DNA from: the human T2T-CHM13v2.0 reference genome, Homo sapiens
Length of the DNA: 64,000 bases
NCBI GenBank assembly: GCA_009914755.4
Contig: CP086569.2
Span: forward strand, 27,712,001 to 27,776,000
Direction of reading: 5' to 3'
Both the position numbers and the translations under genes were made by a program. Of the stretch, positions 10,984 through 57,500 are shown one piece after another. The notes under the pieces are model-generated. The model was not told the DNA's origin, searched no databases, and saw only the letters and a program-made list of their open reading frames with translations. How positions within the stretch are numbered: position 1 is the first letter of the stretch; each line of letters opens with the position of its first letter.

Positions 10984-13900
10984 CAAACCACATTGGTTAG
11001 ACTGACATCGAATAATATCAAAAGAAATGCGGTGAAGTGGAGGGGAGTGTACTGAAATGGGGTGGAATGAAATTGAATGGAGTGGAGTGGAGTGGAGTCT
11101 ACTGGAGTGGAATGGAATGGAATGGAAAGGAATGGAATGGAATGGAAAGGAATCGAATAGAATGGAGTGAAGTGCAGTGCAGTGAAATGGAGTGGAAAGG
11201 AATGGAATGGGAAGAATTGAATCAAATGGAATCGAAGGGAATCGAATCTAATGAAATTGAATGCAAAAAATTGAATGAGTAGAATCGAAAAAGATGGATT
11301 CAAATGGCAACAAATAAAATTGAATGGAATGCGGTGAGGTGGAGGGGATTGGAATGGAGTTGAATGGAATGTGGTGTAATTGAATTGAATGGAGTGGAGT
11401 GGAGTGAACTGGAGTGGAATGGAATGGAATGGGCAGGCATGGAATTGAAAGGCGTGGAGTGGAGTGGAATTGAGAGGAGTGGAATGGAATAGGGTGGATT
11501 GTGGTGGAGAATAATGGAAAAGAGTGGAGTGGAATGGAACGGAATGGAGTGGAGTGGAATGGAATGGAATTGAGTGAAGTGGAGTGTAGTGGAATGGAGA
11601 GTAATGGAGTGGAGTGGACTGGAGTGGAGTAGATTGCAGTGCATTGGACTGTAGGGGATAGAAGTGGCTTGGAGTCCATAGGAGTGGAGTGGAATGGAAT
11701 GGAATGGAGTGGAATGGACTGGAACGGAATGGAATGGAATGGATTTAAATGGCAGGGAATCAAATCGAATTGAATCATATTGAATCAAGTCGAATCGAGT
11801 GGAGGAAAGAAATCGAATGAAATCGAATGGAATGAATTGAATGGAGTCGAATGTCAACCATGGAATCGAAAGTAATGTGGTAAAGTGGAGTGGAGTGGAG
11901 TGTTATGGAGTGGAATGGAATGGGGTGATATGGAATTGAATACAGTGGAGAGGATTGGAGTGGATTGGGCTAGAGTTGAACGGAAAGGGAATGAATGGAA
12001 CTAAATGGAGTGGAGTGGAATGGAGTGGAATGGAATGGAATGGAATGGAATGGAATGGAACGGAATGGAGTGGAATGGAATCGAATCACATGGAACTGAA
12101 TGAAACCGAATTGAATGAAATTCAATGGAGAAAATGGAATCAAATGGAATCAAATCGATCGGATTTGAATGTCATTGAATGGAATCGAAAGGAATGCAGT
12201 GAGGTGGGGTTGAGTGGAATGGAGTGGAATGGAATGGGATGAATGGAATTGAATGGAGTGGAGTGGAATGGAATGGAATGGAAAGGACTGGAATTGAACA
12301 AAATGGAGTGTAGTAGAATGGAGTGGATTGGAGTGGAGTGCAGGGGAGTGCAGTGGAATGAAGGGGAGTGTAGTTGAATGGAATGGAATGTATGGAATGT
12401 ACTGGAATAGAATGGATAAGAAAGGAATGGAATGGAATCGCATGGAATTGAATAGAATCAAATCGAATTGAATAGAATCAAATGGAAAAAATGGAGTCAA
12501 ATGGAATCGAATGGCATAGAATCGAACGGTTTTGAATGGCAGTTAATTGGAACGAATGGAATGCGATGAAGTGGAGCAGAGTGGAGTGGAAAGGAGTGCA
12601 ATGGAATAGGGTGGAACTGAGTTTAATGGAACAGAGTGGATTGGAGTGGACTGGAGTGGAATGGAATGGGAAGGAATGGGATTGAAAGGAGTGGCGTGCA
12701 GTGGAGTGGAGTGGCATGGAGTGGAGTGGAGTGGAATGGAGTGGAATGGAATGGAGTGGAATGGAGTGGATTGGAATGGAATGGAGTGTAGAGGAATGGA
12801 ATGGAATGGTATAGAGTGGACAGGAATGGAGTGGAGTGGATTGGAATGGAATGGAATGGAATGGAATGGAACTGAATGGACTGGAATGGAATGGAATAGA
12901 ATGGAATCACAGGGAATCAAATTGGATTGAATCGAATCGAATGGAAAAAATGAAATCAAATGAAATTGAATGGAATCGAAATGAATGTAAACAATGGAAT
13001 CCAATGGAATCCAATGGAATCGAATCAAATGGTTTTGAATGGCGTAAAATGAAATCGCAAGGAAGGCAGTGAATTGGAGTGGAGTGGAATAGAGAGGAAT
13101 GAATTGGAATGGAGTGGAGTGGAATGGAGTGGATTCCAGTGGAGTGGAGTGGATTGGATCGGAATGGAATGGAATAGACTGGATTGGAGTGGTGTAGAGT
13201 GCAGTGGATTGGAGTGGAGAGGAATGGAGTGGAGAGAAGTCGAGTTGAGTGGAATGGAATGGAGTGGAGCAGAGTGGAATGCAAAAGAATGAAGTGGATT
13301 GGTGTGGAATGGAATGGCGTGGAATGGAGTGGAATAGAATGGAATGGAATCGCATGGAAGGATATCAAATCAAATGGAATCGAACGAAAATTATGAATCC
13401 AATGGAATCGAAAGGATTCCAAAGAAGAGATTCGAAAGGCATTTAATGGAATGGAAAGGTATGCAGTGAAGTGGAGTGGAGTGGAGTGGATTGTTTTAGA
13501 GTGAAATGGGGTGGATTGGAACACTATGTGGTGGAGTGGAGTGTAGTGGATCGGAGTGGAGTGCCGTGGAGTGGACTAGAGTAGGGTGGAGTGGAGTGCA
13601 TTGGAGTGGAATGGAGTGGAGTGGGGTGGAATGGAAAGGAATGGTATCAAATCGCATGGTAATGAATCAAATGGAATCAAATGGAATGAAATAATGGAAT
13701 CGAAGGCAAACGAATGGAATCGAATTGCACTGATTCTACTGACTTCGAAGAAAATGAAATGAAATGCGGTGAAGTGGAGTGGAGTGGAATGTATTAGGGT
13801 GGAATGGAATTGAATGGTGTGGAGTGGAGTGGAGTGCCCAGGAGTGGAATGGGAAGAAATGGAATTGAACGGAGTGGAGTGGAGTGGAATGGAGGGTAAT

Positions 13901-14123
13901 GGAGTGGAATGGAGTGGAGTGGAGTAGAGTGGAATGGGTTGGAGTGGAATGCAGAGGACAGGAGTGGAGTGTGGTGGACTGGAGTTGAGTGGAGTTGAGT
14001 GGAGTGCATTGGATTGAAATAGAGCGGAGCAGAGTGGAATGGAATTGAATCACATGGTACTGAATCAAATCGAATGGAATTAAATCGAATGAAAAAACGG
14101 AATCAAAAGCAAACGAATGGAGT
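10984..14123 (+). repeat. HOR copy D (3140 bp; carries a 20-bp 4-pentamer tandem duplication at ~11131-11150). From ~11.25 kb onward it is the start of the 18.66-kb duplicated block.
   Basis: Landmark at 10984, next at 14124. The sequence 'aatggaatggaatggaaagg' is present twice (11111-11130 and 11131-11150) but once in all other copies. The body equals copy J (11248..11778 = 29905..30435; 12543..13355 = 31195..32007). Confidence 0.8.
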
Positions 14124-17100
14124 CAAACCACATTGGTTAGACTGACATCGAATAATATCAAAAGAAATGCGGTGAAGTGGAGGGGAGTGTACTGAAATGG
14201 GGTGGAATGAAATTGAATGGAGTGGAGTGGAGTGGAGTCTACTGGAGTGGAATGGAATGGAATGGAAAGGAATGGAATAGAATGGAGTGAAGTGCAGTGC
14301 AGTGAAATGGAGTGGAAAGGAATGGAATGGAAAGAATTGAATCAAATGGAATCGAAGTGAATCGAATCTAATGAAATTGAACGCAAAAAATGGAATGAGT
14401 AGAATCGAAAAAGATGGATTCAAATGGCAACAAATAAAATTGAATGGAATGCGGTGAGGTGGAGGGGATTGGAATGGAGTTGAATGGAATGTGGTGTAAT
14501 TGAATTGAATGGAGTGGAGTGGAGTGAACTGGAGTGGAATGGAATGGAATGGGCAGGCATGGAATTGAAAGGCGTGGAGTGGAGTTGAATTGAGAGGAGT
14601 GGAATGGAATAGGGTGGATTTTGGTGGAGAATAATGGAAAAGAGTGGAGTGGAATGGAACGGAATGGAGTGGAGTGGAATGGAATGGAATTGAGTGAAGT
14701 GGAGTGTAGTGGAATGGAGAGTAATGGAGTGGAGTGGACTGGAGTGGAGTAGATTGCAATGCATTGGACTGTAGGGGATAGAAGTGGCTTGGACTCCATA
14801 GGAGTGGAGTGGAATGGAATGGAATGGAGTGGAATGGACTGGAACGGAATGGAATGGAATGGATTCAAATGGCAGGGAATCAAATCGAATTGAATCATAT
14901 TGAATCAAGTCGAATCGAGTGGAGGAAAGAAATCGAATGAAATCGAATGGAATGAATTGAATGGAGTCGAATGTCAACCATGGAATCAAAAGTAATGTGG
15001 TAAAGTGGAGTGGAGTGTTATGGAGTGGAATGGAATGGGGTGACATGGAATTGAATACAGTGGAGAGGAGTGGAGTGGATTGGGCTAGAGTTGAACGGAA
15101 AGGGAAGGAATGGAACTAAATGGAGTGGAGTGGAATGGAATGGAATGGAATGGAATGGAATGGAACGGAATGGCGTGGAATGGAATCGAATCACATGGAA
15201 CTGAATGAAAACGAATTGAATGAATTTGAATGGAGAAAATGGAATCAAATGGAATCAAATCGAACGGCTTCGAATGTCATTGAATGGAATCGAAAGGAAT
15301 GCAGTGAGGTGGGGTTGAGTGGAATGGACTGGAATGGAATGGGATGAATGGAATTGAATGGAGTGGAGTGGAATGGAATGGAATGGAAAGGACTGGAATT
15401 GAACAAAATGGAGTGTAGTAGAATGGAGTGGATTGGAGTGGAGTGCAGAGGATTGCAGTGGAATGAAGAGGAGTGTAGTTGAATGGAATGGAATGTATGG
15501 AATGTACTGGAATAGAATGGATAAGAAAGGAATGGAATGGAATCGCATGGAATTGAATAGAATCAAATCGAATTGAATAGAATCAAATGGAAAAAATGGA
15601 GTCAAATGGAATCGAATGGCATAGAATCGAACGGTTTTGAATGGCAGTGAATGGAAACGAATGGAATGCGATGAAGTGGAGCAGAGTGGAGTGGAAAGGA
15701 GTGCAATGGAATAGGGTGGAACTGAATTTAATGGAACAGAGTGGATTGGAGTGGACTGGAGTGGAATGGAGTGGGAAGGAATGGGATTGAAAGGAGTGGC
15801 GTGCAGTGGAGTTGAGTGGCATGGAGTGGAGTGGAGTGGAATGGAGTGGAATGGAATGGAGTGGAATGGAGTGGATTGGAATGGAATGGAGTGCAGGGGA
15901 ATGGAATGGAATGGTATAGAGTGGACAGGAATGCAGTGGAGAGGATTGGAATGGAATGGAATGGAATGGAATGGAACTGAATGGACTGGAATGGAATGGA
16001 ATAGAATGGAATCACAGGGAATCAAATTGGATTGAATCGAATCGAATGGAAAAAATGAAATCAAATGAAATTGAATGGAATCGAAATGAATGTAAACAAT
16101 GGAATCCAATGGAATCAAATGGAATCGAATCATATGGTTTTGAATGGCGTAAAATGAAATCGCAAGGAAGACAGTGAATTGGAGTCGAGTTGAATAGAGA
16201 GGAATGAATTGGAATGGAGTGGAGTGGAATGGAGTGGATTCCAGTGGAGTGGAGTGGATTGGATTGGAATGGAATGGAATAGACTGGATTGGAGTGGTGT
16301 AGAGTGCAGTGGATTGGAATGGAGAGGAATGGAGTGGAGTGAAGTCGAGTTGAGTGGAATGGAATGGAGTGGAGTAGAGTGGAATGCAAAAGAATGAAGT
16401 GGATTGGTGTGGAATGGAATGGCGTGGAATGGAGTGGAATAGAATGGAATGGAATCGCATGGAAGGATATCAAATCCAATGGAATCGAACGAAAATTATG
16501 AATCCAATGGAATCGAAAGGATTCCAAAGGAACGGATTCGAAAGGCATTTAATGGAATGGAAAGGTATGCAGTGAAGGTTAGTGGAGTGGAGTGGATTGT
16601 TTTAGAGTGAAATGGGGTGGATTGGAACACTATGTGGTGGAGTGGAGTGTAGTGGATCGGAGTGGAGTGCCGTGGAGTGGACTAGAGTGGGGTGGAGTGG
16701 AGTGCATTGGAGTGGAATGGAGTGGAGTGGGGTGGAATGGAATGGAATGGCATCAAATGGCATGGTAATGAATCAAATGGAATCAAATGGAATGAAATAA
16801 TGGAATCGAAGGCAAACGAATGGAATCGAATTGCACTGATTCTACTGACTTCGAAGAAAATGAAATGAAATGCGGTGAAGTGGAGTGGAGTGGAATGTAT
16901 TAGGGTGGAATGGAATTGAATGGTGTGGAGTGGAGTGGAGTGCCCAGGAGTGGAATGGGAAGAAATGGAATTGAACGTAGTGGAGTGGAGTGGAATGGAG
17001 GGTAATGGAGTGGAATGGAGTGGAGTGGAGTAGAGTGGAATGGGTTGGAGTGGAATGCAGAGGACAGGAGTGGAGTGTGGTGGACTGGAGTGGAGTGGAG

Positions 17101-17229
17101 TTGAGTGGAGTGCATTGGATTGAAATAGAGCGGAGCAGAGTGGAATGGAATTGAATCACATGGTACTGAATCAAATCGAATGGAATTAAATCGAATGAAA
17201 AAACGGAATCAAAAGCAAACGAATGGAGT
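14124..17229 (+). repeat. HOR copy E (3106 bp) = copy K
   Basis: Landmark at 14124, next at 17230. 401-aa string 15255..16460 is identical to 33912..35117 (offset 18657). Confidence 0.8.
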
Positions 17230-20200
17230 CAAACCACATTGGTTAGACTGACATCGAATAATATCAAAAGAAATGCGGTGAAGTGGAGGGGAGTGTACTG
17301 AAATGGGGTGGAATGAAATTGAATGGAGTGGAGTGGAGTGGAGTCTACTGGAGTGGAATGGAATGGAATGGAAAGGAATGGGATAGAATGGAGTGAAGTG
17401 CAGTGCAGTGAAATGGAGTAGAAAGGAATGGAATGGGAAGAATTGAATCAAATGGAATCGAAGTGAATCGAATCTAATGAAATTGAACGCAAAAAATGGA
17501 ATGAGTAGAATCGAAAAAGATGGATTCAAATGGCAACAAATAAAATTGAGTGGAATGCGGTGAGGTGGAGGGGATTGGAATGGATTTGAATGGAATGTGG
17601 TGTAATTGAATTGAATGGAGTGGAGTGGAGTGGACTGGAGTGGAATGGAATGGAATGGGCAGGCATGGAATTGAAAGGCGTGGAGTGGAGTGGAATTGAG
17701 AGGAGTGGAATGGAGTAGGGTGGATTGTGGTGGAGAATAATGGAAAAGAGTGGAGTGGAATGGAACGGAATGGAGTGGAGTGGAATAGAATGGAATTGAG
17801 TGAAGTGGAGTGTAGTGGAATGGAGAGTAATGGAGTGGAGTGGACTGGAGTGGAGTAGATTGCAGTGCATTGGACTGTAGGGGATAGAAGTGGCTTGGAC
17901 TCCATAGGAGTGGAGTGGAATGGAATGGAATGGAGTGGAATGGACTGGAACGGAATGGAATGGAATGGATTCAAATGGCAGGGAATCAAATCGAATTGAA
18001 TCATATTGAATCAAGTCGAATCGAGTGGAGGAAAGAAATCGAATGAAATCGAATGGAATGAATTGAATGGAGTCGAATGTCAACCATGGAATCAAAAGTA
18101 ATGTGGTAAAGTGGAGTGGAGTGTTATGGAGTGGAATGGAATGGGGTGACATGGAATTGAATACAGTGGAGAGGAGTGGAGTGGATTGGGCTAGAGTTGA
18201 ACGGAAAGGGAAGGAATGGAACTAAATGGAGTGGAGTGGAATGGAGTGGAATGGAATGGAATGGAATGGAATGGAATGGAATGGAATGGAACGGAATGGC
18301 GTGCAATGGAATCGAATTACATGGAACTGAATGAAACCGAATTGAATGAAATTGAATGGAGAAAATGGAATCAAATGGAATCCAATCGAACGGATTCGAA
18401 TGTCATTGAATGGAATCGAAAGGAATGCAGTGAGGTGGGGTTGAGTGGAATGGAGTGGAATGGAATGGGATGAATGGAATTGAATGGAGTGGAGTGGAAT
18501 GGAATGGAATGGAAAGGACTGGAATTGAACAAAATGGAGTGTAGTAGAATGGAGTGGATTGGAGTGGAGTGCAGGGGAGTGCAGTGGAATGAAGAGGAGT
18601 GTAGTTGAATGGAATGGAATGTATGGAATGTACTGGAATAGAATGGATAAGAAAGGAATGGAATGGAATCGCATGGAATTGAATAGAATCAAATCGAATT
18701 GAATAGAGTCAAATGGAAAAAATGGAGTCAAATGGAATCGAATGGCATAGAATCGAACGGTTTTGAATGGCAGTGAATGGAAACGAATGGAATGCGATGA
18801 AGTGGAGCAGAGTGGAGTGGAAAGGAGTGCAATGGAATAGGGTGGAACTGAATTTAATGGAACAGAGTGGATTGGAGTGGACTGGAGTGGAATGGAATGG
18901 GAAGGAATGGGATTGAAAGGAGTGGCGTGCAGTGGACGGGAGTGGCATGGAGTGGAGTGGAGTGGAATGGAGTGGAATGGAATGGAGTGGAATGGAGTTG
19001 ATTGGAATGGAATGGAGTGCAGAGGAATGGAATGGAATGGTATAGAGTGGACAGGAATGGAGTGGAGCGGATTGGAATGGAATGGAATGGAATGGAATGG
19101 AACTGAGTGGACTGGAGTGGAATGCAATAGAATAGAATCACAGGGAATCAAATTGGATTGAATCGAATCGAAAGGAAAAAAATGAAATCAAATGAAATTG
19201 AATGGAATCGAAATGAATGTAAACAATGGAATCCAATGGAATCAAATGGAATCGAATCAAATGATTTTGAATGGCGTAAAATGAAATCGCGAAGAAGGCA
19301 GTGAATTGGAGTGGAGTGGTATAGAGAGGAATGAATTGGAATGGAGTGGATTGGAATAGAGTGGATTCCAGTGGAGTGGAGTGGATTGGATTTTAATGGA
19401 ATGGAATAGACTGGATTGGAGTGGTGTAGATTGCAGTGGATTGGAGTGGAGAGGAATGGAGTGGAGTGAAGTCGAGTTGAGTGGAATGGAATGGAGTGGA
19501 GCAGAGTGGAATGCAAAAGAATGAAGTGGATTGGTGTGGAATGGAATGGCGTGGAATGGAGTGGAATAGAATGGAATGGAATCGCATGGAAGGATATCAA
19601 ATCCAATGGAATCGAACGAAAATTATGAATCCAATGGAATCGAAAGGATTCCAAAGGAACGGATTCGAAAGGCATTTAATGGAATGGAAAGGTATGCAGT
19701 GAAGTGGAGTGGAGTGGAGTGGATTGTTTTAGAGTGAAATGGGGTGGATTGGAACACTATGTGGTGGAGTGGAGTGTAGTGGATCGGAGTGGAGTGCCGT
19801 GGAGTGGACTAGAGTGGGGTGGAGTGGAGTACATTGGAGTGGAATGGAGTGGAGTGGGGTGGAATGGAATGGAATGGCATCAAATCGCATGGTAATGAGT
19901 CAAATGGAATGAAATAATGGAATCGAAGGCAAACGAATGGAATCGAATTGCACTGATTCTACTGACTTCGAGGAAAATGAAATGAAACGCGGTGAAGTGG
20001 AGTGGAGTGGAATGTATTAGGGTGGAATGGAATTGAATGGTGTGGAGTGGAGTGGAGTGCCCAGGAGTGGAATGGGAAGAAATGGAATTGAACGGAGTGG
20101 AGTGGAGTGGAATGGAGGGTAATGGCGTGGAATGGAGTGGAGTGGAGTAGAGTGGAATGGGTTGGAATGGAATGCAGAGGACAGGAGTGCAGTGTGGTGG

Positions 20201-20346
20201 ACTGGAGTGGAGTGGAGTTGAGTGGAGTGGATTGGATTGAAATAGAGCGGAGCAGAGTGGAATGGAATTGAATCACATGGTATTGAATCAAATCGAATGG
20301 AATTAAATCGAATGAAAAAACGGAATCAAAAGCAAACGAACGGAGT
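17230..20346 (+). repeat. HOR copy F (3117 bp) = copy L; carries the 10-bp 'caaatggaat' deletion subtype marker (~19910)
   Basis: Landmark at 17230, next at 20347. 309-aa string 18222..19151 is identical to 36879..37808. Confidence 0.8.
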
Positions 20347-45217: not shown

Positions 45218-48200
45218 CAAACCACATTGGTTAGACTGACATCGAATAATATCAAAAGAAATGTGGTGAAGTGGAGTGGAGTGTACTGAAATGGGGTGGA
45301 ATGAAATTGAATGGAGTGGAGTGGAGTCTACTGGAGTGGAATGGAATGGAATGGAAAGGAATGGAATAGAATGGAGTGAAGTGCAGTGCAGTGAAATGGA
45401 GTGGAAAGGAATGGAATGGAAAGAATTGAATCAAATGGAACCGAAGTGAATCGAATCTAATGAAATTGAACGCAAATTGTGGAATGAGTAGAATCGAAAA
45501 AGATGTATTCAAATGGCAACAAATAAAATTGAATGGAATGCGGTGAGGTGGAGGGGATTGGAATGGATTTGAATGGAATGTGGTGTAATTGAATTGAATG
45601 GAGTGGAGTGGAGTGAACTGGAGTGGAATGGAATGGAATGGGCAGACATGGAATTGAAAGGCGTGGAGTGGAGTGGAATTGAGAGGAGTGGAATGGAGTA
45701 GGGTGGATTGTGGTGGAGAATAATGGAAAAGAGTGGAGTGGAATGGAACGGATTGGAGTGGAGTGGAATGGAATGGAATTGAGTGAAGTGGAGTGTAGTG
45801 GAATGGAGAGTAATGGAGTGGAGTGGACTGGAGTGGAGTAGATTGCAGTGCATTGGACTGTAGGGGATGGAAGTGGATTGGAGTCCATAGGAGTGGAGTG
45901 GAATGGAATGGAATGGAGTGGAATGGACTGGAACGGAATGGATTTAAATGGCAGGGAATCAAATCGAATTGAATCATATTGAATCAAGTCGAATCGAGTG
46001 GAGGAAAGAAATCGAATGAAATCGAATGGAATGAATTGAATGGAGTCGAATGTCAACCATGGAATCAAAAGTAATGTGGTAAAGTGGAGTGGAGTGGAGT
46101 GTTATGGAGTGGAATGGAATGGGGTGACATGGAATTGAATACAGTGGAGAGGAGTGGAGTGGATTGGGCTAGAGTTGAACGGAAAGGGAAGGAATGGAAC
46201 TAAATGGAGTGGAGTGGAATGGAGTGGAATGGAATGGAATGGAATGGAATGGAACGGAATGGAGCAAAATGGAATCGAATCACATGGAACTGAATGAAAC
46301 CGAATTGAATGAAATTCAATGGAGAAAATGGAATCAAATGGAATCAAATCGAACGGATTCGAATGTCATTGAATGGAATCGAAAGGAATGCAGTGAGGTG
46401 GGGTTGAGTGGAATGGAGTGGAATGGAATGGGATGAATGGAATTGAATGGAGTGGAGTGGAATGGAATGGAATGGAAAGGACTGGAATTGAACAAAATGG
46501 AGTGTAGTAGAATGGAGTGGATTGGAGTGGAGTGCAGGGGAGTGCAGTGGAATGAAGAGGAGTGTAGTTGAATGGAATGGAATGTATGGAATGTACTGGA
46601 ATAGAATGGATAAGAAAGGAATGGAATGGAATCGCATGGAATTGAATAGAATCAAATCGAATTGAATAGAATCCAATGGAAAAAATGGAGTCAAATGGAA
46701 TCGAATGGCATAGAATCGAACGGTTTTGAATGGCAGTGAATGGAAACGAATGGAATGCGATGAAGTGGAGCGCAGTGGAGTGGAAAGGAGTGCAATGGAA
46801 TAGGGTGGAACTGCATTTAATGGAACAGAGTGGATTGGAGTGGACTGGAGTGGAATGGAATGGGAAGGAATGGGATTGAAAGGAGTGGTGTGCAGTGGAG
46901 TGGAGTGGCATGGAGTGGAGTGGAGTGGAATGGAGTGGAATGGAATGGAGTGGAATGGAGTGGATTGGAATGGAATGGAGTGCAGAGGAATGGAATGGAA
47001 TGGTATAGAGTGGACAGGAATGGAGTGGAGTGGATTGGAATGGAATGGAATGGAATGGAATGGAACTGAATGGACTGGAATGGAATGCAATAGAATGGAA
47101 TCACAGGGAATCAAATTGGATTGAATCGAATCGAAAGGAAAAAAATGAAATCAAATGAAATTGAATGGAATCGAAATGAATGTAAACAATGGAATCCAAT
47201 GGAATCAAATGGAATCGAATCAAATGGTTTTGAATGGCGTAAAATGAAATCGCAAGGAAGACAGTGAATTGGAGTGGAGTCGAATAGAGAGGAATGAATT
47301 GGAATGGAGTGGATTGGAATGGAGTGGATTCCAGTGGAGTGGAGTGGATTGGATTTTAATGGAATGGAATAGACTGGATTGCAGTGGTGTAGATTGCAGT
47401 GGATTGGAGTGGAGAGGAATGGAGTGGAGTGAAGTCGAGTTGAGTGGAATGGAATGGAGTGGAGCAGAGTGGAATGCAAAAGAATGAAGTGGATTGGTGT
47501 GGAATGGAATGGCGTGGAATGGAGTAGAATAGAATGGAATGGAATCGCATGGAAGGATATCAAATCAAATGGAATCGAACGAAAATTATGAATCCAATGG
47601 AATCGAAAGGATTCCAAAGGAACGGATTCGAAAGGCATTTAATGGAATGGAAAGGTATGCAGTGAAGTGGAGTGGAGTGGAGGGGATTGTTTTAGAGTGA
47701 AATGGGGTGGATTGGAACACTATGTTGTGGAGTGGAGTGTAGTGGATCGGAGTGGAGTGCCGTGGAGTGGACTAGAGTGGGGTGGAGTGGAGTGCATTGG
47801 AGTGGAATGGAGTGGAGTGGGGTGGAATGGAATGGAATGGCATCAAATCGCATAGTAATGAGTCAAACGGAATGAAATAATGGAATCGAAGGCAAACGAA
47901 TGGAATCGAATTGCACTGATTCTTCTGACTTCGAACAAAATGAAATGAAATGCGGTGAAGTGGAGTGGAGTGGAATGTATTAGGGTGGAATGGAATTGAA
48001 TGGTGTGGAGTGGATTGGAGTGCCCAGGAGTGGAATGGGAAGAAATGGAATTGAACGGAGTGGAGTGGAGTGGAATGGAGGGTAATAGAGTGGAATGGAG
48101 TGGAGTGGAGTAGAGTGGAATGGGTTGGAATGGAATGCAGAGGACAGGAGTGGAGTGTGGTGGACTGGAGGGGAGTGGAGTTGAGTGGAGTGGATTGGAT

Positions 48201-48309
48201 TGAAATAGAGCGGAGCAGAGTGGAATGGAATTGAATCATATGGTATTGAATCAAATCGAATGGAATTAAATCGAATGAAAAAACGGAATCAAAAGCAAAC
48301 GAATGGAGT
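45218..48309 (+). repeat. HOR copy O (3092 bp) = copy H
   Basis: Landmark at 45218, next at 48310. 10-bp deletion marker at ~47880. Confidence 0.8.
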
Positions 48310-51300
48310 CAAACCACATTGGTTAGACTGACATCGAATAATATCAAAAGAAATGCGGTGAAGTGGAGGGGAGTGTACTGAAATGGGGTGGAATGAAATT
48401 GAATGGAGTGGAGTGGAGTGGAGTCTACTGGAGTGGAATGGAATGGAATGGAAAGGAATGGAATAGAATGGAGTGAAGTGCAGTGAAGTGAAATGGAGTG
48501 GAAAGGAATGGAATGGAAAGAATTGAATCAAATGGAATCGAAGTGAATCGAATCTAATGAAATTGAACGCAATATGTGGAATGAGTAGAATCGAAAAAGA
48601 TGGATTCAAATGGCAACAAATAAAATTGAATGGAATGCGGTGAGGTGGAGGGGATTGGAATGGAGTTGAATGGAATGTGGTGTAATTGAATTGAATGGAG
48701 TGGAGTGGAGTGAACTGGAGTGGAATGGAATGGAATGGGCAGGCATGGAATTGAAAGGCGTGGAGTGGAGTGGAATTGAGAGGAGTGGAATGGAGTAGGG
48801 TGGATTGTGGTGGAGAATAATGGAAAAGAGTGGAGTGGAATGGAACGGATTGGAGTGGAGTGGAATGGAATGGAATTGAGTGAAGTGGAGTGTAGTGGAA
48901 TGGAGAGTAATGGAGTGGAGTGGACTGGAGTGGAGTAGATTGCAGTGCATTGGACTGTAGGGGATAGAAGTGGCTTGGAGTCCATAGGAGTGGAGTGGAA
49001 TGGAATGGAATGGAGTGGAATGGATTGGAACGGAATGGAATGGAATGGATTTAAATGGCAGGGAATCAAATCGAATTGAATCATATTGAATCAAGTCTAA
49101 TCGAGTGGAGGAAAGAAATCGAATGAAATCGAATGGAATGAATTGAATGGAGTCGAATGTCAACCATGGAATCAAAAGTAATGTGGTAAAGTGGAGTGGA
49201 GTGGCGTGTTATGGAGAGGAATGGAATGGGGTGACATGGAATTGAATACATTGGAGAGGAGTGGAGTGGATTGGGGTAGAGTTGAACGGAAAGGGAAGGA
49301 ATGGAACTAAATGGAGTGGAGTGGAATGGAGTGGAATGGAATGGAATGGAATGGAATGGAACGGAATGGAGTGCAATGGAATAGAATCACATGGAACTGA
49401 ATGAAACCGAATTGAATGAAATTCAATTGAGAAAATGGAACAAATGGAATCAAATCGAACGGATTCGAATGTCATTGAATGGAATCGAAAGGAATGCAGT
49501 GAGGTGGGGTTGAGTGGAATGGAGTGGAATGGAATGGGATGAATGGAATTGAATGGAGTGGAGTGGAATGGAATGGAATGGAAAGGACTGGAATTGAACA
49601 AAATGGAGTGTAGTAGAATGGAGTGGATTGGAGTGGAGTGCAGGGGAGTGCAGTGGAATGAAGAGGAGTGTAGTTGAATGGAATGGAATGTGTGGAATGT
49701 ACTGGAATAGAATGGATAAGAAAGGAATGGAATGGAATCGCATGGAATTGAATAGAATCAAATCGAATTGAATAGAATCCAATGGAAAAAATGGAGTCAA
49801 ATGGAATCGAATGGCATAGAATCGAACGGTTTTGAATGGCAGTGAATGGAAACGAATGGAATGCGATGAAGTGGAGCGCAGTGGAGTGGAAAGGAGTGCA
49901 ATGGAATAGGGTGGAACTGCATTTAATGGAACAGAGTGGATTGGAGTGGACTGGAGTGGAATGGAATGGGAAGGAATGGGATTGAAAGGAGTGGTGTGCA
50001 GTGGAGTGGAGTGGCATGGAGTGGAGTGGAGTGGAATGGAGTGGAATGGAATGGAGTGGAATGGAGTGGATTGGAATGGAATGGAGTGCAGAGGAATGGA
50101 ATGGAATGGTATAGAGTGGACAGGAATGGAGTGGAGTGGATTGGAATGGAATGGAATGGAATGGAACTGAATGGACTGGAATGGAATGCAATAGAATGGA
50201 ATCACAGGGAATCAAATTGGATTGAATCGAATCGAAAGGAAAAAAATGAAATCAAATGAAATTGAATGGAATCGAAATGAATGTAAACAATGGAATCCAA
50301 TGGAATCAAATGGAATCGAATCAAATGGTTTTGAATGGCGTAAAATGAAATCGCAAGGAAGACAGTGAATTGGAGTGGAGTGGAATAGAGAGGAATGAAT
50401 TGGAATGGAGTGGATTGGAATGGAGTGGATTCCAGTGGAGTGGAGTGGATTGGATTTTAATGGAATGGAATAGACTGGATTGCAGTGGTGTAGATTGCAG
50501 TGGATTGGAGTGGAGAGGAATGGAGTGGAGTGAAGTCGAGTTGAGTGGAATGGAATGGAGTGGAGCAGAGTGGAATGCAAAAGAATGAAGTGGATTGGTG
50601 TGGAATGGAATGGCGTGGAATGGAGTAGAATAGAATGGAATGGAATCGCATGGAAGGATATCAAATCAAATGGAATCGAACGAAAATTATGAATCCAATG
50701 GAATCGAAAGGATTCCAAAGGAACGGATTCGAAAGGCATTTAATGGAATGGAAAGGTATGCAGTGAAGTGGAGTGGAGTGGAGGGGATTGTTTTAGAGTG
50801 AAATGGGGTGGATTGGAACACTATGTTGTGGAGTGGAGTGTAGTGGATCGGAGTGGAGTGCCGTGGAGTGGACTAGAGTGGGGTGGAGTGGAGTGCATTG
50901 GAGTGGAATGGAGTGGAGTGGGGTGGAATGGAATGGAATGGCATCAAATCGCATAGTAATGAGTCAAACGGAATGAAATAATGGAATCGAAGGCAAACGA
51001 ATGGAATCGAATTGCACTGATTCTTCTGACTTCGAACAAAATGAAATGAAATGCGGTGAAGTGGAGTGGAGTGGAATGTATTAGGGTGGAATGGAATTGA
51101 ATGGTGTGGAGTGGATTGGAGTGCCCAGGAGTGGAATGGGAAGAAATGGAATTGAACGGAGTGGAGTGGAGTGGAATGGAGGGTAATAGAGTGGAATGGA
51201 GTGGAGTGGAGTAGAGTGGAATGGGTTGGAATGGAATGCAGAGGACAGGAGTGGAGTGTGGTGGACTGGAGGGGAGTGGAGTTGAGTGGAGTGGATTGGA

Positions 51301-51410
51301 TTGAAATAGAGCGGAGCAGAGTGGAATGGAATTGAATCATATGGTATTGAATCAAATCGAATGGAATTAAATCGAATGAAAAAACGGAATCAAAAGCAAA
51401 CGAATGGAGT
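48310..51410 (+). repeat. HOR copy P (3101 bp). Recombinant HOR: I-type head (48.31-~49.6 kb) and H/O-type tail (~49.9-51.41 kb). Product of an unequal exchange.
   Basis: The I-type-specific 130-aa string at 49209..49601 is identical to 27445..27837 and 52310..52702. From ~49.9 kb it carries H/O-type variants (HTTPFNP, LNAVPPYS, RSTSS, ILLHS as in 46344..47114). The H-type 10-bp deletion is at ~50980. Strings 50212..50739 and 50873..51355 match 47111.. and 47772.. Confidence 0.65.
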
Positions 51411-54400
51411 CAAACCACATTGGTTAGACTGACATCGAATAATATCAAAAGAAATGCGGTGAAGTGGAGGGGAGTGTACTGAAATGGGGTGGAATGAAAT
51501 TGAATGGAGTGGAGTGGAGTGGAGTCTACTGGAGTGGAATGGAATGGAATGGAAAGGAATGGAATAGAATGGAGTGAAGTGCAGTGAAGTGAAATGGAGT
51601 GGAAAGGAATGGAATGGAAAGAATTGAATCAAATGGAATCGAAGTGAATCGAATCTAATGAAATTGAACGCAATATGTGGAATGAGTAGAATCGAAAAAG
51701 ATGGATTCAAATGGCAACAAATAAAATTGAATGGAATGCGGTGAGGTGGAGGGGATTGGAATGGAGTTGAATGGAATGTGGTGTAATTGAATTGAATGGA
51801 GTGGAGTGGAGTGAACTGGAGTGGAATGGAATGGAATGGGCAGGCATGGAATTGAAAGGCGTGGAGTGGAGTGGAATTGAGAGGAGTGGAATGGAGTAGG
51901 GTGGATTGTGGTGGAGAATAATGGAAAAGAGTGGAGTGGAATGGAACGGATTGGAGTGGAGTGGAATGGAATGGAATTGAGTGAAGTGGAGTGTAGTGGA
52001 ATGGAGAGTAATGGAGTGGAGTGGACTGGAGTGGAGTAGATTGCAGTGCATTGGACTGTAGGGGATAGAAGTGGCTTGGAGTCCATAGGAGTGGAGTGGA
52101 ATGGAATGGAATGGAGTGGAATGGATTGGAACGGAATGGAATGGAATGGATTTAAATGGCAGGGAATCAAATCGAATTGAATCATATTGAATCAAGTCTA
52201 ATCGAGTGGAGGAAAGAAATCGAATGAAATCGAATGGAATGAATTGAATGGAGTCGAATGTCAACCATGGAATCAAAAGTAATGTGGTAAAGTGGAGTGG
52301 AGTGGCGTGTTATGGAGAGGAATGGAATGGGGTGACATGGAATTGAATACATTGGAGAGGAGTGGAGTGGATTGGGGTAGAGTTGAACGGAAAGGGAAGG
52401 AATGGAACTAAATGGAGTGGAGTGGAATGGAGTGGAATGGAATGGAATGGAATGGAATGGAACGGAATGGAGTGCAATGGAATAGAATCACATGGAACTG
52501 AATGAAACCGAATTGAATGAAATTCAATTGAGAAAATGGAACAAATGGAATCAAATCGAACGGATTCGAATGTCATTGAATGGAATCGAAAGGAATGCAG
52601 TGAGGTGGGGTTGAGTGGAATGGAGTGGAATGGAATGGGATGAATGGAATTGAATGGAGTGGAGTGGAATGGAATGGAATGGAAAGGACTGGAATTGAAC
52701 AAAATGGAGTGTAGTAGAATGGAGTGGATTGGAGTGGAGTGCAGGGGAGTGCAGTGGAATGAAGAGGAGTGTAGTTGAATGGAATGGAATGTATGGAATG
52801 TACTGGAATAGAATGGATAAGAAAGGAATGGAATGGAATCGCATGGAATTGAATAGAATCAAATCGAATTGAATAGAATCCAATGGAAAAAATGGAGTCA
52901 AATGGAATCGAATGGCATAGAATCGAACGGTTTTGAATGGCAGTGAATGGAAACGAATGGAATGCGATGAAGTGGAGCAGAGTGGAGTGGAAAGGAGTGC
53001 AATGGAATAGGGTGGAACTGAATTTAATGGAACAGAGTGGATTGGAGTGGACTGGAGTGGAATGGAATGGGAAGGAATGGGATTGAAAGGAGTGGCGTGC
53101 AGTGGACTGGAGTGGCATGGAGTGGAGTGGAGTGGAATGGAGTGGAATGGAATGGAGTGGAATGGAGTGGATTGGAATGGAATGGAGTGCAGGGGAATGG
53201 AATGGAATGGTATAGAGTGGACAGGAATGGAGTGGAGTGGATTGGAATGGAATGGAATGGAATGGAATGGAACTGAATGGACAGGAATGGAATGGAATAG
53301 AATGGAATCACAGGGAATCAAATTGGATTGAATCGAATCGAATGTAAAAAATGAAATCAAATTAAATTGAATGGAATCGAAATGAATGTAAAGAATGGAA
53401 TCCAATGGAATCAAATGGAATCGAATCAAATGGTTTTGAATGGCGTAAAATGAAATCGCGAGGAAGGCAGTGAATTGGAGTGGAGTGGAATAGAGAGGAA
53501 TGAATTGGAATGGAGTGGAGTGGAATGGAGTGGATTCCAGTGGAGTGGAGTGGATTGGATTTTAATGGAATGGAATAGACTGGATTGGAGTGGTGTAGAG
53601 TGCAGTGGATTGGATTGGAGAGGAATGGAGTGGAGTGAAGTAGAGTTGAGTGGAATGGAATGGAGTGGAGCAGAGTGGAATGCAAAAGAATGAAGTGGAT
53701 TGGTGTGGAATGGAATGGCGTGGAATGGAGTGGAATAGAATGGAATGGAATCGCATGGAAGGATATCAAATCCAATGGAATCGAACGAAAATTTTGAATC
53801 CAATGGAATCGAAAGGATTCCAAAGGAACGGATTCGAAAGGCATTTAATGGAATGGAAAGGTATGCAGTGAAGGTTAGTGGAGTGGAGTGGATTGTTTTA
53901 GAGTGAAATGGGGTGGATTGGAACACTATGTGGTGGAGTGGAGTGTAGTGGATCGGAGTGGAGTGCCGTGGAGTGGACTAGAGTGGGGTGGAGTGGAGTG
54001 CATTGGAGTGGAATGGAGTGGAGTGGGGAGGAATGGAATGGAATGGCATCAAATGGCATGGTAGTGAATCAAATGGAATCAAATGGAATGAAATAATGGA
54101 ATCGAAGGCAAACGAATGGAATCGAATTGCACTGATTCTACTGACTTCGAAGAAAATGAAATGAAATGCGGTGAAGTGGAGTGGAGTGGAATGTATTAGG
54201 GTGGAATGGAATTGAATGGTGTGGAGTGGAGTGGAGTGCCCAGGAGTGGAATGGGAAGAAATGGAATTGAACGTAGTGGAGTGGAGTGGAATGGAGGGTA
54301 ATGGAGTGGAATGGAGTGGAGTGGAGTAGAGTGGAATGGGTTGGAGTGGAATGCAGAGGACAGGAGTGGAGTGTTGTGGACTGGAGTGGAGTGGTGTTGA

Positions 54401-54526
54401 GTGGAGTGGATTGGATTGAAATAGAGCGGAGCAGAGTGGAATGGAATTGAATCACATGGTATTGAATCAAATCGAATGGAATTAAATCGAATGAAAAAAC
54501 GGAATCAAAAGCAAACGAATGGAGTC
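51411..54526 (+). repeat. HOR copy Q (3116 bp) = copy I
   Basis: Landmark at 51411, next at 54527. No 10-bp deletion (~54070 has both caaatggaat units). Confidence 0.8.
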
Positions 54527-57500
54527 AAACCACATTGGTTAGACTGACATCGAATAATATCAAAAGAAATGCGGTGAAGTGGAATGGAGTGTAATGAAAT
54601 GGGGTGGAATGAAATTGAATGGAGTGGAGTGGAGTGGAGTCTACTGGAGTGGAATGGAATGGAATGGAAAGGAATGGAATAGAATGGAGTGAAGTGCAGT
54701 GCAGTGAAATGGAGTGGAAAGGAATGGAATAGAAAGAATTGAATCAAATGCAATCGAAGTGAATCGTATCTAATGAAATTGAACGCAAAAAATGGAATGA
54801 GTAGAATCGAAAAGATGGATTCAAATGGCAACAAATAAAATTGAATGGAATGCGGTGAGGTGGAGGGGATTGGAATGGAGTTGAATGGAATGTGGTGTAA
54901 TTGAATTGAATGGAGTGGAGTGGAGTGAACTGGAATGGAATGGAATGGAATGGGCAGGCATGGAATTGAAAGGCGTGGAGTGGAGTGGAATTGAGAGGAG
55001 TGGAATGGAGTAGGGTGGATTGTGGTGGAGAATAATGGAAAAGAGTGGAGTGGAATGGAACGGAATGGAGTGGAGTGGAATGGAATGGAATTGAGTGAAG
55101 TGGAATGCAGTGGAATGGAGAGTAATGGAGTGGAGTGGACTGGAGTGGAGTAGATTGCAGTGCATTGGACTGTAGGGGATAGAAGTGGCTTGGAGTCCAT
55201 AGGAGTGGAGTGGAATGGAATGGAATGGAGTGGAATGGACTGGAACGGAATGGAATGGAATGGATTTAAATGGCAGGGAATCAAATCGAATTGAATCATG
55301 TTGAATCAAGTCGAATCGAGTGGAGGAAAGAAATCGCATGAAATCGAATGGAATGAATTGAATGGAGTCGAATGTCAACCATGGAGTCGAAAGTAATGTG
55401 GTAAAGTGGAGTGGAGTGGAGTGCTATGGAGTGGAATGGAATGGGGTGACATGGAACTGAATACAGTGGAGAGGAGTAGAGTGGATTGGGCTAGAGTTGA
55501 ACGGAAAGGGAAGGAATGTAACTAAATGGAGTGGAGTGGAATGGAGTGGAATGGAATGGAATGGAATGGAATGGAATGGAACGGAATGGAGTGCAGTGGA
55601 ATCGAATCACATGGAACTGAATGAAACCGAATTGAATGAAATTGAATGGAGAAAATGGAATCAAATGGAATCAAATCGAACGGATTCGAATGTCATTGAA
55701 TGGAATCGAAAGGAATGCAGTGAGGTGGGGTTGAGTGGAATGGAATGGGATGAATGGAATTGAATGGAGTGGAGTGGAATGGAATGGAATGGAACGGAAA
55801 GGAATGGAATTGAACAAAGTGGAGTGGAGTGGATTGGAGTGGAGTGCAGGGAGTGCAGTGGAATGAAGAGGAGTGTAGTTGAATGGAATGGAATGTATGG
55901 AACGTACTGGAATGGGATGAATAAGAATGGAATGGAATGGAATCGCATGGAATTGAATAGAATCAAATCGAATTGAATAGAATCAAATGGAAAAAATGGA
56001 GTCAAATGGAATCCAATGGCATGGAATCGAACGGTTTTGAATGGCAGTGAATGGAAACGAAAGGAATGCGATGAAGTGGAGCGCAGTGGAGTGGAAAGGA
56101 GTGCGATGGAATAGGGCGGAACTGAATTTAATGGAACATAGTGGATTGGAGTGGACTGGAGTGGAATGGAATGGGAAGGAATGGGATTGAAAGGAGTGGC
56201 GTGCAGTGGAGTGGAGTGGCATGGAATGGAGTGGAGTGGAATGGAGTGGAATGGAATGGAGTGGAATGGAGTTGATTGGAATGGAATGGAGTGGAGAGGA
56301 ATGGAATGGAATGGTATAGAGTGGACAGGAATGGAGTGGAGTGGAATGGAATGGAATGGAATGGAATGGAATGGAACTGAATGGAATGGAATTGAATGGA
56401 ATAGAATGGAATCGCAGGGAATCAAATTGGTTTGAATCGAATCCAATGGAAAAAATGAAATCAAATGAAATTGAATGGAATCGAAATGAATGTAAAAAAT
56501 GGAATCCAGTGGAATCCAATGGAATCGAAACAAATGGTTTTGAATGGCTTAAAATGAAATCGCATGGAAGGCAGTGAATTGGAGTGGAGTGGAATAGAGA
56601 GGAATGAATTGGAATGGAGTGTAGTGGAATGTACTGGATTCCAGTGGAGTGGAGTCTATTGGATTGGAATGGAATGGAACAGATTGGATTGGAGTTGTGC
56701 AGAGTTGAGTGGACTGGATTGGAGAGGAATGGAGTGGAGTGAAGTCGAGTTGAGTGGAATGGAATGGAGTGGAGCAGAGTGGAATGCAACAGAATGAAGT
56801 GGATTGGTATGGAATGGAATGGCGTGGAATGGAGTGGAATAGAATGTAATGGAATCGCATGGAAGGATATCAAATCAAATGGAATCGAACGGAAAATTAT
56901 GAATCCAATGGAATCGAAAGGATTCCAAAGGAATAGATTCGAAAGGCATTGAATGGAATGGAAAGGAATGCAGTGAAGTGGAGTGGAGTGGAGTGGATTG
57001 TTTTAGAGTGAAATGGGGTGGATTGGAACTCTATGGGGTGGAGTGGAGCGAAGTGGATTGGAGTGGAATGCAGTGCAATGGACTGGAGTGGAGTGGAATA
57101 GATTGGAGTGGAGTGGAGTGGATCGGAGTGTAGTGCCGTGGAGTGGACTAGAGTGGGGTGGATTGGAGTGCATTGGAGTGAAATGGAGTGGAGTGCGGTG
57201 GAATGGAATGGAATGGCATCAAATCGCATGGTAATGAATCAAATGGAATCAAATGGAATGGAAATAATGGAATCGAAGGCAAACGAATGGAATCGAATTG
57301 CACTGATTCTACTGAGTTGAAACAAAATGAAATGAAACGCGGTGAAGTGGAGTGGATTGGAATGTATTAGGGTGGAATGGAATTGAATGGTGTGGAGTGG
57401 AGTGGAGTGCCCAGGAGTGTAATGGGAAGAAATGGAATTGAACGGAGTGGAGTGGATTGGAATGGAGGGTAATGGAGTGGAATGGAGTGGAGTGGAGTAG

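What the first reader, a model, noticed from the sequence alone, without database searches (positions are those of the whole stretch)
11200..54770. Nested ~18.66-kb (6-HOR) tandem segmental duplication inside the array
The block ~11.2-29.9 kb is repeated at ~29.9-54.8 kb. Translated strings of 176-401 aa are identical at constant offsets: 18652-18657 bp for copies D-G, 21764 bp for H, 24865 bp for I. This implies >99% identity over ~18.7 kb, much higher than identity between neighbouring HORs inside the block (E, F, G, H, I each carry private variants and indels). That pattern indicates a very recent multi-HOR duplication by unequal crossing-over. The copy-J head is chimeric: it carries the R-like variants 'gtgtaatgaaatgg' and ISLHS, then switches to D-like sequence by ~29.9 kb. 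That is the expected tandem-duplication junction. It also implies that the original array read ...D-left | X | R-right....
Basis: seen in the sequence. Interest (0 to 1): 0.7.

Follow-up and report, generated by a model that had tools for sequence, protein, structure and literature searches.

The report
Recent six-unit duplication in satellite III
Inside a long array of satellite-III-type DNA, an 18.7-kb stretch of six 3.1-kb repeat units has been copied head-to-tail fairly recently; this is the ordinary way such arrays grow, not a new kind of element.

Summary
The whole 64-kb window is a pentamer (AATGG)n-derived satellite of HSat3A type, organised in about 20 units of about 3.1 kb that are 97.2-98.7% alike.

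- **The two copies.** Segment X (11,239-29,895; 18,657 bp; six units) recurs directly afterwards as X' (29,896-54,760). They differ by 26 substitutions and two one-pentamer indels, which is 99.86% identity.
- **Two extra units.** X' also holds two extra single units of 3,107 and 3,101 bp.
- **The junction.** Junction unit U9 is a colinear hybrid. It is U17-like on the left and U3-like from about 29.9 kb. The two extra units (U13, U16) are also in-register hybrids.
- **Mechanism.** This is what in-register unequal homologous exchange produces, the textbook mechanism of satellite evolution, already described for HSat3 arrays.

Three caveats apply. The three events cannot be ordered. The junction is not perfectly clean: 8 of the 26 differences fall in the last 732 bp of X (P about 1e-6), which I could not explain. 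"Very recent" means roughly 0.1-1 Myr. The source locus (possibly the human Yq11/Yq12 DYZ18/3.1-kb arrays) could not be tested. The finding is ordinary and of low interest.

The parts
132..63987 (+). Pentamer-derived satellite array. The consensus is AATGG on the + strand, i.e. the G-rich strand of (CATTC)n. It is organised in about 20 units of about 3.1 kb.
   Evidence: TRF reports one array with period 5, 12,832 copies and 64% matches. GC skew is +0.70 to +0.76 throughout. Unit boundaries and lengths of 3,092-3,157 bp come. There are no inverted repeats.
11239..29895 (+). Proximal copy X of the duplicated segment (18,657 bp). It runs from the right 0.77 kb of unit U3, through U4-U8, to the left 2.36 kb of U9.
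   Evidence: The last dense-zone difference on the left is at 11,238. Of the 26 substitutions against X', 12 are derived in X.
29896..54760 (+). Distal copy X' (24,865 bp). It equals X plus two extra units. It runs from the right part of U9, through U10-U16, to the left 2.36 kb of U17.
   Evidence: Lags of 18,657/18,652, then 21,764, then 24,865. Of the 26 substitutions, 14 are derived in X'.
29730..29918 (+). Junction zone of the six-unit duplication, inside hybrid unit U9 (27,540-30,654). U9 is U17-like to the left and U3-like to the right. The best placement is 29,896-29,918.
   Evidence: U9 last shares U17-type states that differ from U3 at 29,720 and 29,729. It first shares states found only in U3 at 29,919 and 29,929. 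The alignment is colinear, with no junction indel.
39998..43104 (+). Extra unit U13, an in-register hybrid (U7/U14-type left, U6/U12-type right) created by a 3,107-bp tandem duplication. The switch lies between 41,737 and 41,953.
   Evidence: A lag-3,107 run covers 38,150-42,249 at 99.5%. Only 2 substitutions separate the duplicated tracts.
49304..52404 (+). Extra unit U16, an in-register hybrid (U9/U17-type for the first roughly 140-570 bp, then U8/U15-type) created by a 3,101-bp tandem duplication. The switch lies between 49,441 and 49,877.
   Evidence: A lag-3,101 run covers 47,010-50,172 at 99.4%. The copies differ by 2 substitutions and one pentamer deletion at 50,141.
54029..54767 (+). 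Cluster of seven private derived substitutions in U17, at the distal end of X' and just past the boundary. The last, at 54,767, lies 7 bp beyond the end of X'. Two private changes in U9 (29,807 and 29,890) lie in the matching stretch of X.
   Evidence: 8 of the 26 substitutions fall in the last 732 bp of X (Poisson P about 1e-6). The U17 variants are absent from all other units and from 14 external contigs.
4042..10057 (+). Older one-unit tandem duplication (lag 3,121; 99.24%) outside the finding. It shows the same process at an earlier date.
55529..64000 (+). Increasingly divergent units (U18, U19 and beyond) of a different structural variant. This is either the edge of the homogeneous array or a switch of unit type.
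   Evidence: Identity to the main units is 95.3-96.3% for U18 and 93.5-94.4% for U19, falling to 76-82% beyond 61.8 kb. A block of about 60 columns is replaced at alignment columns 1500-1600.

Best explanation
The window is a satellite-III-type (HSat3A-like) array of 3.1-kb nested tandem repeat units. An ancestral order ...U3 U4 U5 U6 U7 U8 U17... underwent one in-register unequal homologous exchange. The exchange paired the unit now called U17 with U3, six units away, at about 2.36 kb into the unit. It could have been between sister chromatids or between homologues.

The product carries the 18,657-bp segment twice in tandem, joined in a hybrid unit (U9 = U17-left + U3-right). Two further in-register single-unit exchanges, of about the same age, added U13 (3,107 bp) and U16 (3,101 bp) to the distal copy. 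Since then the copies have gathered about 0.1% point differences on both sides, plus pentamer slippage in perfect (GGAAT)n runs.

Shown: the two copies, their identity, the offsets, the hybrid units and the in-register colinear junctions.

Inferred: the mechanism (homologous unequal exchange), the order of events and the age. The age is roughly 1 Myr at a genome-average rate of about 0.5e-9 per bp per year (my own knowledge). It would be about 0.1-0.3 Myr if satellites mutate 4-10 times faster, as reported for centromeric regions (PMC11062924). No function is implied beyond array growth and turnover.
For: - **Identity.** X against X' is 99.86% over 18,657 bp, against 97.0-98.7% between any other pair of the homogeneous units.
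- **Offsets.** They are constant and change only by +3,107 and +3,101 where extra units sit.
- **Left boundary.** The 1,238 bp to the left of 11,239 (10,001-11,238) hold 27 substitutions and two 20-bp indels. The 12 kb to its right holds 11 substitutions and two 5-bp indels.
- **Junction unit.** U9 switches parent once, with no junction insertion or deletion. U13 and U16 are likewise single-switch in-register hybrids.
- **Real paralogs.** Differences are derived about equally in both copies (12 vs 14), and each is a singleton against the other units. This is what independently diverging paralogs should show.
- **Indels.** All three are plus or minus one pentamer in perfect pentamer runs.
- **Orientation and extent.** Everything is in direct orientation with no inversions. 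The six-unit period does not extend beyond the two copies.
- **Literature.** Hyper-local expansion of nested tandem repeats in HSat2/3 arrays is described in the Altemose et al. preprint. Iterative tandem duplications attributed to unequal exchange in Y HSat3 are described in the Rhie et al. preprint.
Against: - Divergence is not uniform. 8 of 26 substitutions lie in the last 732 bp of X (P about 1e-6), and 6 of them are private to U17. A simple exchange followed by clock-like mutation does not predict this.
- In the 177 bp before the junction, U9 is no closer to U17 (5 differences) than to unrelated units (2-5 differences).
- No shared derived variant orders the three events. Their divergences (0.10%, 0.064%, 0.064%) are indistinguishable, so three independent exchanges is a parsimony choice, not a result.
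- The transition:transversion ratio is 12:14, lower than the roughly 2:1 typical of human germline change (the expectation is from my own knowledge).
- Only one haplotype and no reads are available, so misassembly cannot be excluded directly.
Confidence: 0.8

Rival explanations
1. One complex replication-based event, such as break-induced replication or fork restart with repeated in-register template switching. It copied the six-unit block and, in the same pass, re-copied one unit twice. It left a patch of errors near the switch point.
For: - Both extra units lie in the same (distal) copy.
- All three duplications have statistically indistinguishable divergence: 0.10% against 2/3,107 and 2/3,101.
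- Private changes cluster near the junction-homologous position (P about 1e-6).
- 3 of the 6 differences among U8/U15/U16 lie inside the roughly 440-bp U16 switch zone.
Against: - Most clustered changes are private to U17, which is not the novel junction. A mutagenic-synthesis scar would be expected in the junction copy U9, which has only 2.
- Both extra units falling in one given copy has a chance probability of 1/4.
- The U13 switch zone shows no excess (1 of 7 differences).
- Equal ages are also expected if the array went through a short burst of ordinary exchanges.
Confidence: 0.12
2. The ancestral block had eight units (with U13 and U16 already present) and was duplicated as 24.9 kb. The proximal copy then lost two single units by in-register deletions.
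For: No derived variant is shared by U13 and its parent units, or by U15 and U16, to the exclusion of the proximal copy. The order of events is therefore unresolved. In-register deletion is as easy as duplication in such arrays.
Against: It needs five events instead of three. U13 and U16 differ from their parent tracts by only 2 substitutions each. That is no more than the X-X' divergence, whereas duplications predating the block duplication should be at least as diverged.
Confidence: 0.06
3. Assembly artefact: a false tandem duplication, for example two haplotypes or read groups of one six-unit block laid end to end.
For: Satellite arrays are error-prone to assemble. No read-level evidence is available here. 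The transition:transversion ratio of the differences is unusual.
Against: - The copies differ structurally by two whole units. Each extra unit has a clean in-register hybrid and its own private variants.
- The junction unit is a coherent hybrid of the two flanking unit types, exactly as a real tandem duplication requires.
- Singleton variants are balanced between the copies.
Confidence: 0.04
4. No duplication: gene conversion or homogenisation between units six apart, or an array whose true period is 18.66 kb.
For: Patches at about 99% identity between other unit pairs show that short exchange or conversion tracts do occur. One example is 16,268-17,419 against 28,699-29,850.
Against: - Conversion gives short patches, not a continuous 18.66-kb tract with one sharp boundary at each end.
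- Units outside the block show no six-unit periodicity (U1-U7 97.5%, U2-U8 97.8%).
Confidence: 0.02

Closest known systems
Human satellite III (HSat3) arrays with multi-kb nested tandem repeats (NTRs), as described for T2T-CHM13 (Altemose et al., preprint 10.1101/2021.07.12.452052; subfamilies in PMC4022460)
   Same: The array derives from the (CATTC)n/(GGAAT)n pentamer and has multi-kb repeat units. It shows local ('hyper-local') expansion and strong strand asymmetry. It lacks the HSat2 markers. A one-mismatch version of the HSat3A4 marker 24-mer occurs once per unit.
   Different: The exact HSat3A4 marker occurs only once, in the divergent tail. No published subfamily marker fits the main units exactly. 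The chromosome and array could not be determined.
Iterative tandem duplications in Y-chromosome heterochromatin: DYZ1/DYZ2 blocks in T2T-Y (10.1101/2022.12.01.518724), and the ~80-kb DYZ19 duplication shared by haplogroup QR (10.1101/2022.12.01.518658)
   Same: Multi-unit blocks of a satellite array are duplicated in tandem. The copies are much more alike than neighbouring units. The papers attribute this to unequal exchange, and such duplications are usable as lineage markers.
   Different: The scale here is much smaller (18.7 kb against 80 kb to 5 Mb). No population data could be examined for this event.
DYZ18 and the adjacent '3.1 kbp' repeat array at the human Yq11/Yq12 boundary (Hallast et al. 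preprint; DYZ18 is AATGG-based according to 10.1101/470054)
   Same: Both are AATGG-based with a unit of about 3.1 kb. Both have an adjacent array of degenerate copies about 96% identical. In the window, U18/U19 are 94-96% identical to the main units and carry a replaced segment.
   Different: This is a lead from the literature only. No DYZ18 or 3.1-kbp consensus sequence was available to compare, and the unit marker was not found in any paper text.
Alpha-satellite HOR arrays evolving by unequal crossing-over and saltatory amplification (PMC11062924); Smith's 1976 unequal-crossover model of tandem repeat evolution (my own knowledge)
   Same: Both show a hierarchy of in-register duplications of different ages, hybrid units at junctions, and more divergent units toward an array edge.
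   Different: This is a different satellite family. The units are not built from discrete monomers, so 'HOR' is a loose term here. No centromere function is implied.

Membership tests
Human satellite III (HSat3) | Derived from tandem (CATTC)n = (GGAAT)n pentamers | tested here: met
   TRF gives period 5 and consensus AATGG over 132-63,987. The top 5-mers are rotations of GGAAT.
Human satellite III (HSat3) | Not HSat2: lacks HSat2 subfamily marker 24-mers | tested here: met
   The HSat2A1, 2A2 and 2B markers give 0 hits at up to 2 mismatches. The markers come from Table 1 of PMC4022460.
HSat3 subfamily A4 (acrocentrics/Y; PMC4022460) | Carries the subfamily-specific 24-mer AATTCCATTCCTTCCCATTCCATT | tested here: inconclusive
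   There is one exact hit (63,523, in the divergent tail). A one-mismatch version (AATCCC...) occurs once in most units, 17 in all. The other ten HSat3 subfamily markers give 0 hits at up to 1 mismatch.
HSat3 B-type subfamilies | Presence of the CAACCCGA(A/G)T-type decamer (from memory of the satellite 3 literature) | tested here: not met
   There are 0 occurrences on either strand. The array is therefore A-type rather than B-type.
Human origin | Sequence identity to a human assembly | not testable with these tools
   No human genome collection is available. The unit marker is found in 14 ENA metagenome contigs at 84-98% identity, presumably host contamination, and in 0 GTDB genomes.
Tandem segmental duplication by in-register unequal homologous exchange | Two adjacent direct copies whose identity far exceeds that of other unit pairs | tested here: met
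   99.86% against 97.0-98.7%.
Tandem segmental duplication by in-register unequal homologous exchange | A single hybrid junction unit, colinear with both parents, without junction insertion or deletion | tested here: met
   U9 switches from U17-type to U3-type between 29,730 and 29,918.
Tandem segmental duplication by in-register unequal homologous exchange | Uniform post-event divergence along the copies | tested here: not met
   8 of 26 substitutions fall in the last 732 bp (P about 1e-6). This needs an additional event or process.
Tandem segmental duplication by in-register unequal homologous exchange | Existence of haplotypes without the duplication (polymorphism or ancestral state) | not testable with these tools
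   13 external contigs cover the junction region, all with the U17-type haplotype and none with the U9 hybrid. They are other variants at 98.6% identity or less, so they are uninformative.
DYZ18 / 3.1-kbp arrays of human Yq11-Yq12 | Sequence match to the DYZ18 or 3.1-kbp consensus, and a Y-specific location | not testable with these tools
   Only the unit length (~3.1 kb), the AATGG basis and a neighbouring degenerate variant agree.

The most novel reading that the evidence does not exclude
The six-unit duplication, the two single-unit re-copies in the same copy, and the cluster of private base changes around the junction-homologous position could be the scar of one mutagenic, replication-based repair event (break-induced replication with serial in-register template switches). 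They would then not be three separate unequal crossovers. If so, this would be a base-resolution example of how HSat3 arrays expand in bursts.
Probability: 0.1. Interest if true: 0.45.

Novelty: new member of a known kind. Interest (0 to 1): 0.15.

Why it matters
It matters little on its own. It is a well-resolved textbook example of how satellite arrays grow: in-register duplication of a multi-unit block, then single-unit duplications, then slow divergence.

It has two practical uses:
1. The 26 paralog-specific variants and the three hybrid units are markers that could date or trace this array variant across haplotypes. If the locus is the Y-linked DYZ18/3.1-kb region, they would mark Y lineages.
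2. The non-uniform divergence near the junction is a small, concrete case. With population long-read data, it could test whether satellite expansions leave mutational scars.

Tried and rejected
- **blastn/megablast of block 1 against block 2** returned one chained low-identity HSP because of culling in repeats. I replaced it with a diagonal-walk comparison.
- **The repeat finder** was swamped by pentamer-level families. It was useful only for reporting 0 inverted repeats.
- **Rfam** gave no hits.
- **Long ORFs.** They were not pursued as genes.
- **Ordering the three duplications by shared derived variants** failed. Every candidate (20,907; 23,234; 24,835; 25,926) turned out to be a private change of the proximal copy.
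- **A single later exchange replacing U17 from about 54.0 kb rightwards** is disfavoured as an explanation for the cluster. U17 remains specifically U9-like (1 difference against 6-9 for other units) across alignment columns 2000-2300 (U17 about 54,325-54,625).
- **Locus identification failed.** The GTDB scan was empty. The metagenome contigs are other variants. No paper contains the unit marker.
- **Gene conversion and a stable 18.66-kb period** were rejected on tract continuity and on the lack of periodicity outside the block.

Full report
**What the window is.** Tandem Repeats Finder describes the whole window (132-63,987) as one array of period 5 with consensus AATGG. Base composition is strongly asymmetric (C is 6% of bases; GC skew is about +0.72 everywhere) and uniform.

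On top of the pentamer there is a period of about 3.1 kb. A reference unit aligns 19-20 times head to tail, with unit lengths of 3,092-3,157 bp. Marker 24-mers for the published HSat2/HSat3 subfamilies (Table 1 of PMC4022460) were tested:
- The HSat2 markers and all B-type HSat3 markers are absent.
- The CAACCCGA-type decamer is absent.
- Only the HSat3A4 marker comes close. There is one exact copy in the divergent tail, and a one-mismatch version occurs once in most units.

The sequence is therefore an HSat3A-type array. Its units are what Altemose et al. call nested tandem repeats rather than HORs. Rfam finds nothing.

**Checking the observation.** Every number in the finding reproduces.
- Ungapped self-identity peaks at lags 18,657, 21,764 and 18,652.
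- Exact 32-mers pile up at 18,657, 21,764, 24,865 and 18,652.
- Runs at 99% identity or better over 1-kb windows are 12,003-15,197 (+18,652), 15,100-23,576 (+18,657), 19,493-28,408 (+21,764) and 25,246-29,928 (+24,865). Local runs occur at +3,107 (38,150-42,249) and +3,101 (47,010-50,172).

In a MAFFT alignment of 19 units, corresponding units are 99.7-99.9% identical (U4=U10, U5=U11, U6=U12, U7=U14, U8=U15). All other pairs among U1-U17 are 97.0-98.7% identical. Walking the matched diagonals base by base gives 26 substitutions and two 5-bp indels over 18,657 bp, i.e. 99.86% identity. This is far beyond chance and beyond the array's background similarity.

**Anatomy.**

| Element | Coordinates | Note |
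|---|---|---|
| Proximal copy X | 11,239-29,895 | 18,657 bp, six units |
| Distal copy X' | 29,896-54,760 | 24,865 bp = 18,657 + 3,107 + 3,101 |
| Six-unit junction zone | 29,730-29,918 (in U9) | best placement 29,896-29,918 |
| Extra unit U13 | 39,998-43,104 | switch at 41,737-41,953 |
| Extra unit U16 | 49,304-52,404 | switch at 49,441-49,877 |

The left edge is sharp. The 1,238 bp to the left of 11,239 (10,001-11,238) hold 27 substitutions and two 20-bp indels against the partner. The 12 kb to its right holds 11 substitutions and two 5-bp indels.

The junction lies in unit U9 (27,540-30,654). U9 follows U17 with only 2 differences over its first 1.6 kb. From 29,919 onward it shares states found only in U3. 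The alignment is colinear, with no inserted or deleted bases at the switch. The switch can be bracketed to 29,730-29,918. If U3's private states are older than the event, it narrows to 29,896-29,918.

The two extra units are also single-switch in-register hybrids:
- U13 is U7/U14-type on the left and U6/U12-type on the right.
- U16 is U9/U17-type for its first few hundred bases, then U8/U15-type.

These hybrids are exactly what tandem duplication of one period produces. They explain why the offset steps from 18,657 to 21,764 to 24,865.

**Polarising the differences.** Using the other units as outgroup, 12 of the 26 substitutions are derived in X and 14 in X'. Each is a singleton. This balance is what independently diverging paralogs should show. 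All three indels among the recent copies are plus or minus one pentamer in perfect (GGAAT)6-7 runs, i.e. slippage.

I looked for derived variants shared by U13 or U16 with their distal parents but absent from the proximal copy. Such variants would prove that the single-unit duplications came after the block duplication. None exists: every candidate is a private change of the proximal copy. The single-unit duplicates differ from their parent tracts by 2 substitutions each (0.064%). This is indistinguishable from the 0.10% between X and X'. The three events are therefore of the same age within noise. Three duplications is the parsimonious order (three events, against five for an eight-unit ancestor with two deletions), but it is not demonstrated.

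**What does not fit a simple picture.** Divergence is not uniform. There are 18 substitutions in the first 17,925 bp of X but 8 in the last 732 bp (29,164-29,895 against 54,029-54,760; Poisson P about 1e-6). Six of the eight are derived states private to U17. A seventh private U17 change at 54,767 lies just beyond the boundary.
- None of these occurs in any other unit or in 14 external contigs.
- In the last 177 bp before the junction, U9 is no closer to U17 than to unrelated units.
- No single breakpoint position can explain why U9 carries none of the private variants of either parent in that zone. At least some of them must postdate the event, or the junction involved more than a single switch.
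- A single later exchange replacing U17 from about 54.0 kb rightwards is disfavoured. U17 stays specifically U9-like across alignment columns 2000-2300, about 54,325-54,625.
- 3 of the 6 differences among U8/U15/U16 also fall in the U16 switch zone, which is marginal. The U13 zone shows no excess.

I leave this unexplained. Later patchy conversion from an unseen donor, a local mutation cluster, and exchange between already-diverged partners all remain possible.

**Mechanism.** The copies are in direct orientation. All three junctions are in register and colinear. A hierarchy of similar events of different ages exists in the same window: an older one-unit duplication at 4,042-10,057 (99.24%) and patches at about 99%. 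Together these point to homology-driven unequal exchange, the classical mechanism of tandem-array evolution. Non-homologous joining would not preserve register.

Whether the exchange was between sister chromatids, between homologues, or replication-based cannot be decided from one haplotype. A single complex replication-based event remains a minority possibility of about 0.1.

At 0.10-0.14% divergence the event is recent only relative to the array. It is about 1 Myr old at a genome-average rate (my own knowledge of the rate). It is perhaps 0.1-0.3 Myr old if the 4- to 10-fold faster change reported for centromeric satellites applies (PMC11062924).

**Related sequences and locus.** A unit-specific 32-mer present in all 20 units was found in 14 ENA metagenome contigs, presumably host contamination, and in no GTDB genome. 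These contigs are 84-98% identical to the window and represent other variants of the same unit. Several match the divergent units U18/U19 best. At the four sites that define the junction haplotype, the 13 contigs covering the region all carry the U17-type combination, and none carries the U9 hybrid. Being other variants, they say nothing about polymorphism of this duplication.

The literature offers one concrete lead for the locus. This is the boundary between Yq11 and Yq12 on the human Y chromosome. There, an AATGG-based DYZ18 array sits next to a '3.1 kbp' array of degenerate DYZ18 copies at about 96% identity. The window's unit length, pentamer basis and transition into a 94-96% variant with a replaced segment are compatible with that. 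If it is correct, exchange between homologues is excluded and sister-chromatid exchange is the likely route.

**Comparison with what is known, and verdict.** Local, multi-unit tandem duplications inside HSat3 arrays are already described: 'hyper-local' NTR expansion, iterative tandem duplications in Yq12 attributed to unequal exchange, and an approximately 80-kb duplication in DYZ19 marking a Y haplogroup. This instance is a clean, small example of that known process.

The refinements are those given above: two extra in-register units, a fuzzy junction with a mutation cluster, unresolved event order, and only relative recency. Interest is low (0.15). The only mildly unusual element is the junction-proximal excess of private changes.

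Noticed in passing
window 54,029-54,767 (and 29,807, 29,890): There is a cluster of private derived substitutions at the distal end of the duplicated block. 8 of the 26 inter-copy differences lie in the last 732 bp of X, mostly private to U17. They are absent from all other units and from the external contigs.
   Followed up: partly
window 4,042-6,936 vs 7,163-10,057: An older one-unit tandem duplication (lag 3,121, 99.24% identity) lies upstream of the finding. It shows the same process at an earlier date.
   Followed up: partly
window 55,529-64,000: Units U18 and U19 are a distinct structural variant. About 60 columns are replaced at alignment columns 1500-1600, and overall divergence is 4-6%. 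Beyond 61.8 kb, similarity to the main unit falls to 76-82%. This is either the array edge or a switch to another unit type. The only exact HSat3A4 marker 24-mer sits here (63,523).
   Followed up: partly
window 11,135-11,154: Unit U3 carries a private 20-bp (four-pentamer) insertion just left of the duplication boundary. It is absent from all 18 other units.
   Followed up: no
window 12,056; 15,166; 50,141: All indels between the recent copies are plus or minus one pentamer inside perfect (GGAAT)6-7 runs, i.e. microsatellite-style slippage within the satellite.
   Followed up: yes
loci L001-L014 (ENA metagenome contigs): The unit-specific 32-mer GTCAAACCACATTGGTTAGACTGACATCGAAT occurs in 14 metagenome contigs at 84-98% identity to the window. 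This is presumably host-DNA contamination. L001 has two markers 2,802 bp apart, so it is either a shorter variant or a collapsed assembly.
   Followed up: partly
window 16,268-17,419 vs 28,699-29,850 (and 53,564-54,677): A patch of about 99% identity links U5/U11 with U9/U17, which are otherwise unrelated units. This suggests an older exchange or conversion tract.
   Followed up: no
window 11,239-54,760: The transition:transversion ratio of the 26 inter-copy substitutions is 12:14, lower than the roughly 2:1 usual for human germline substitutions.
   Followed up: no
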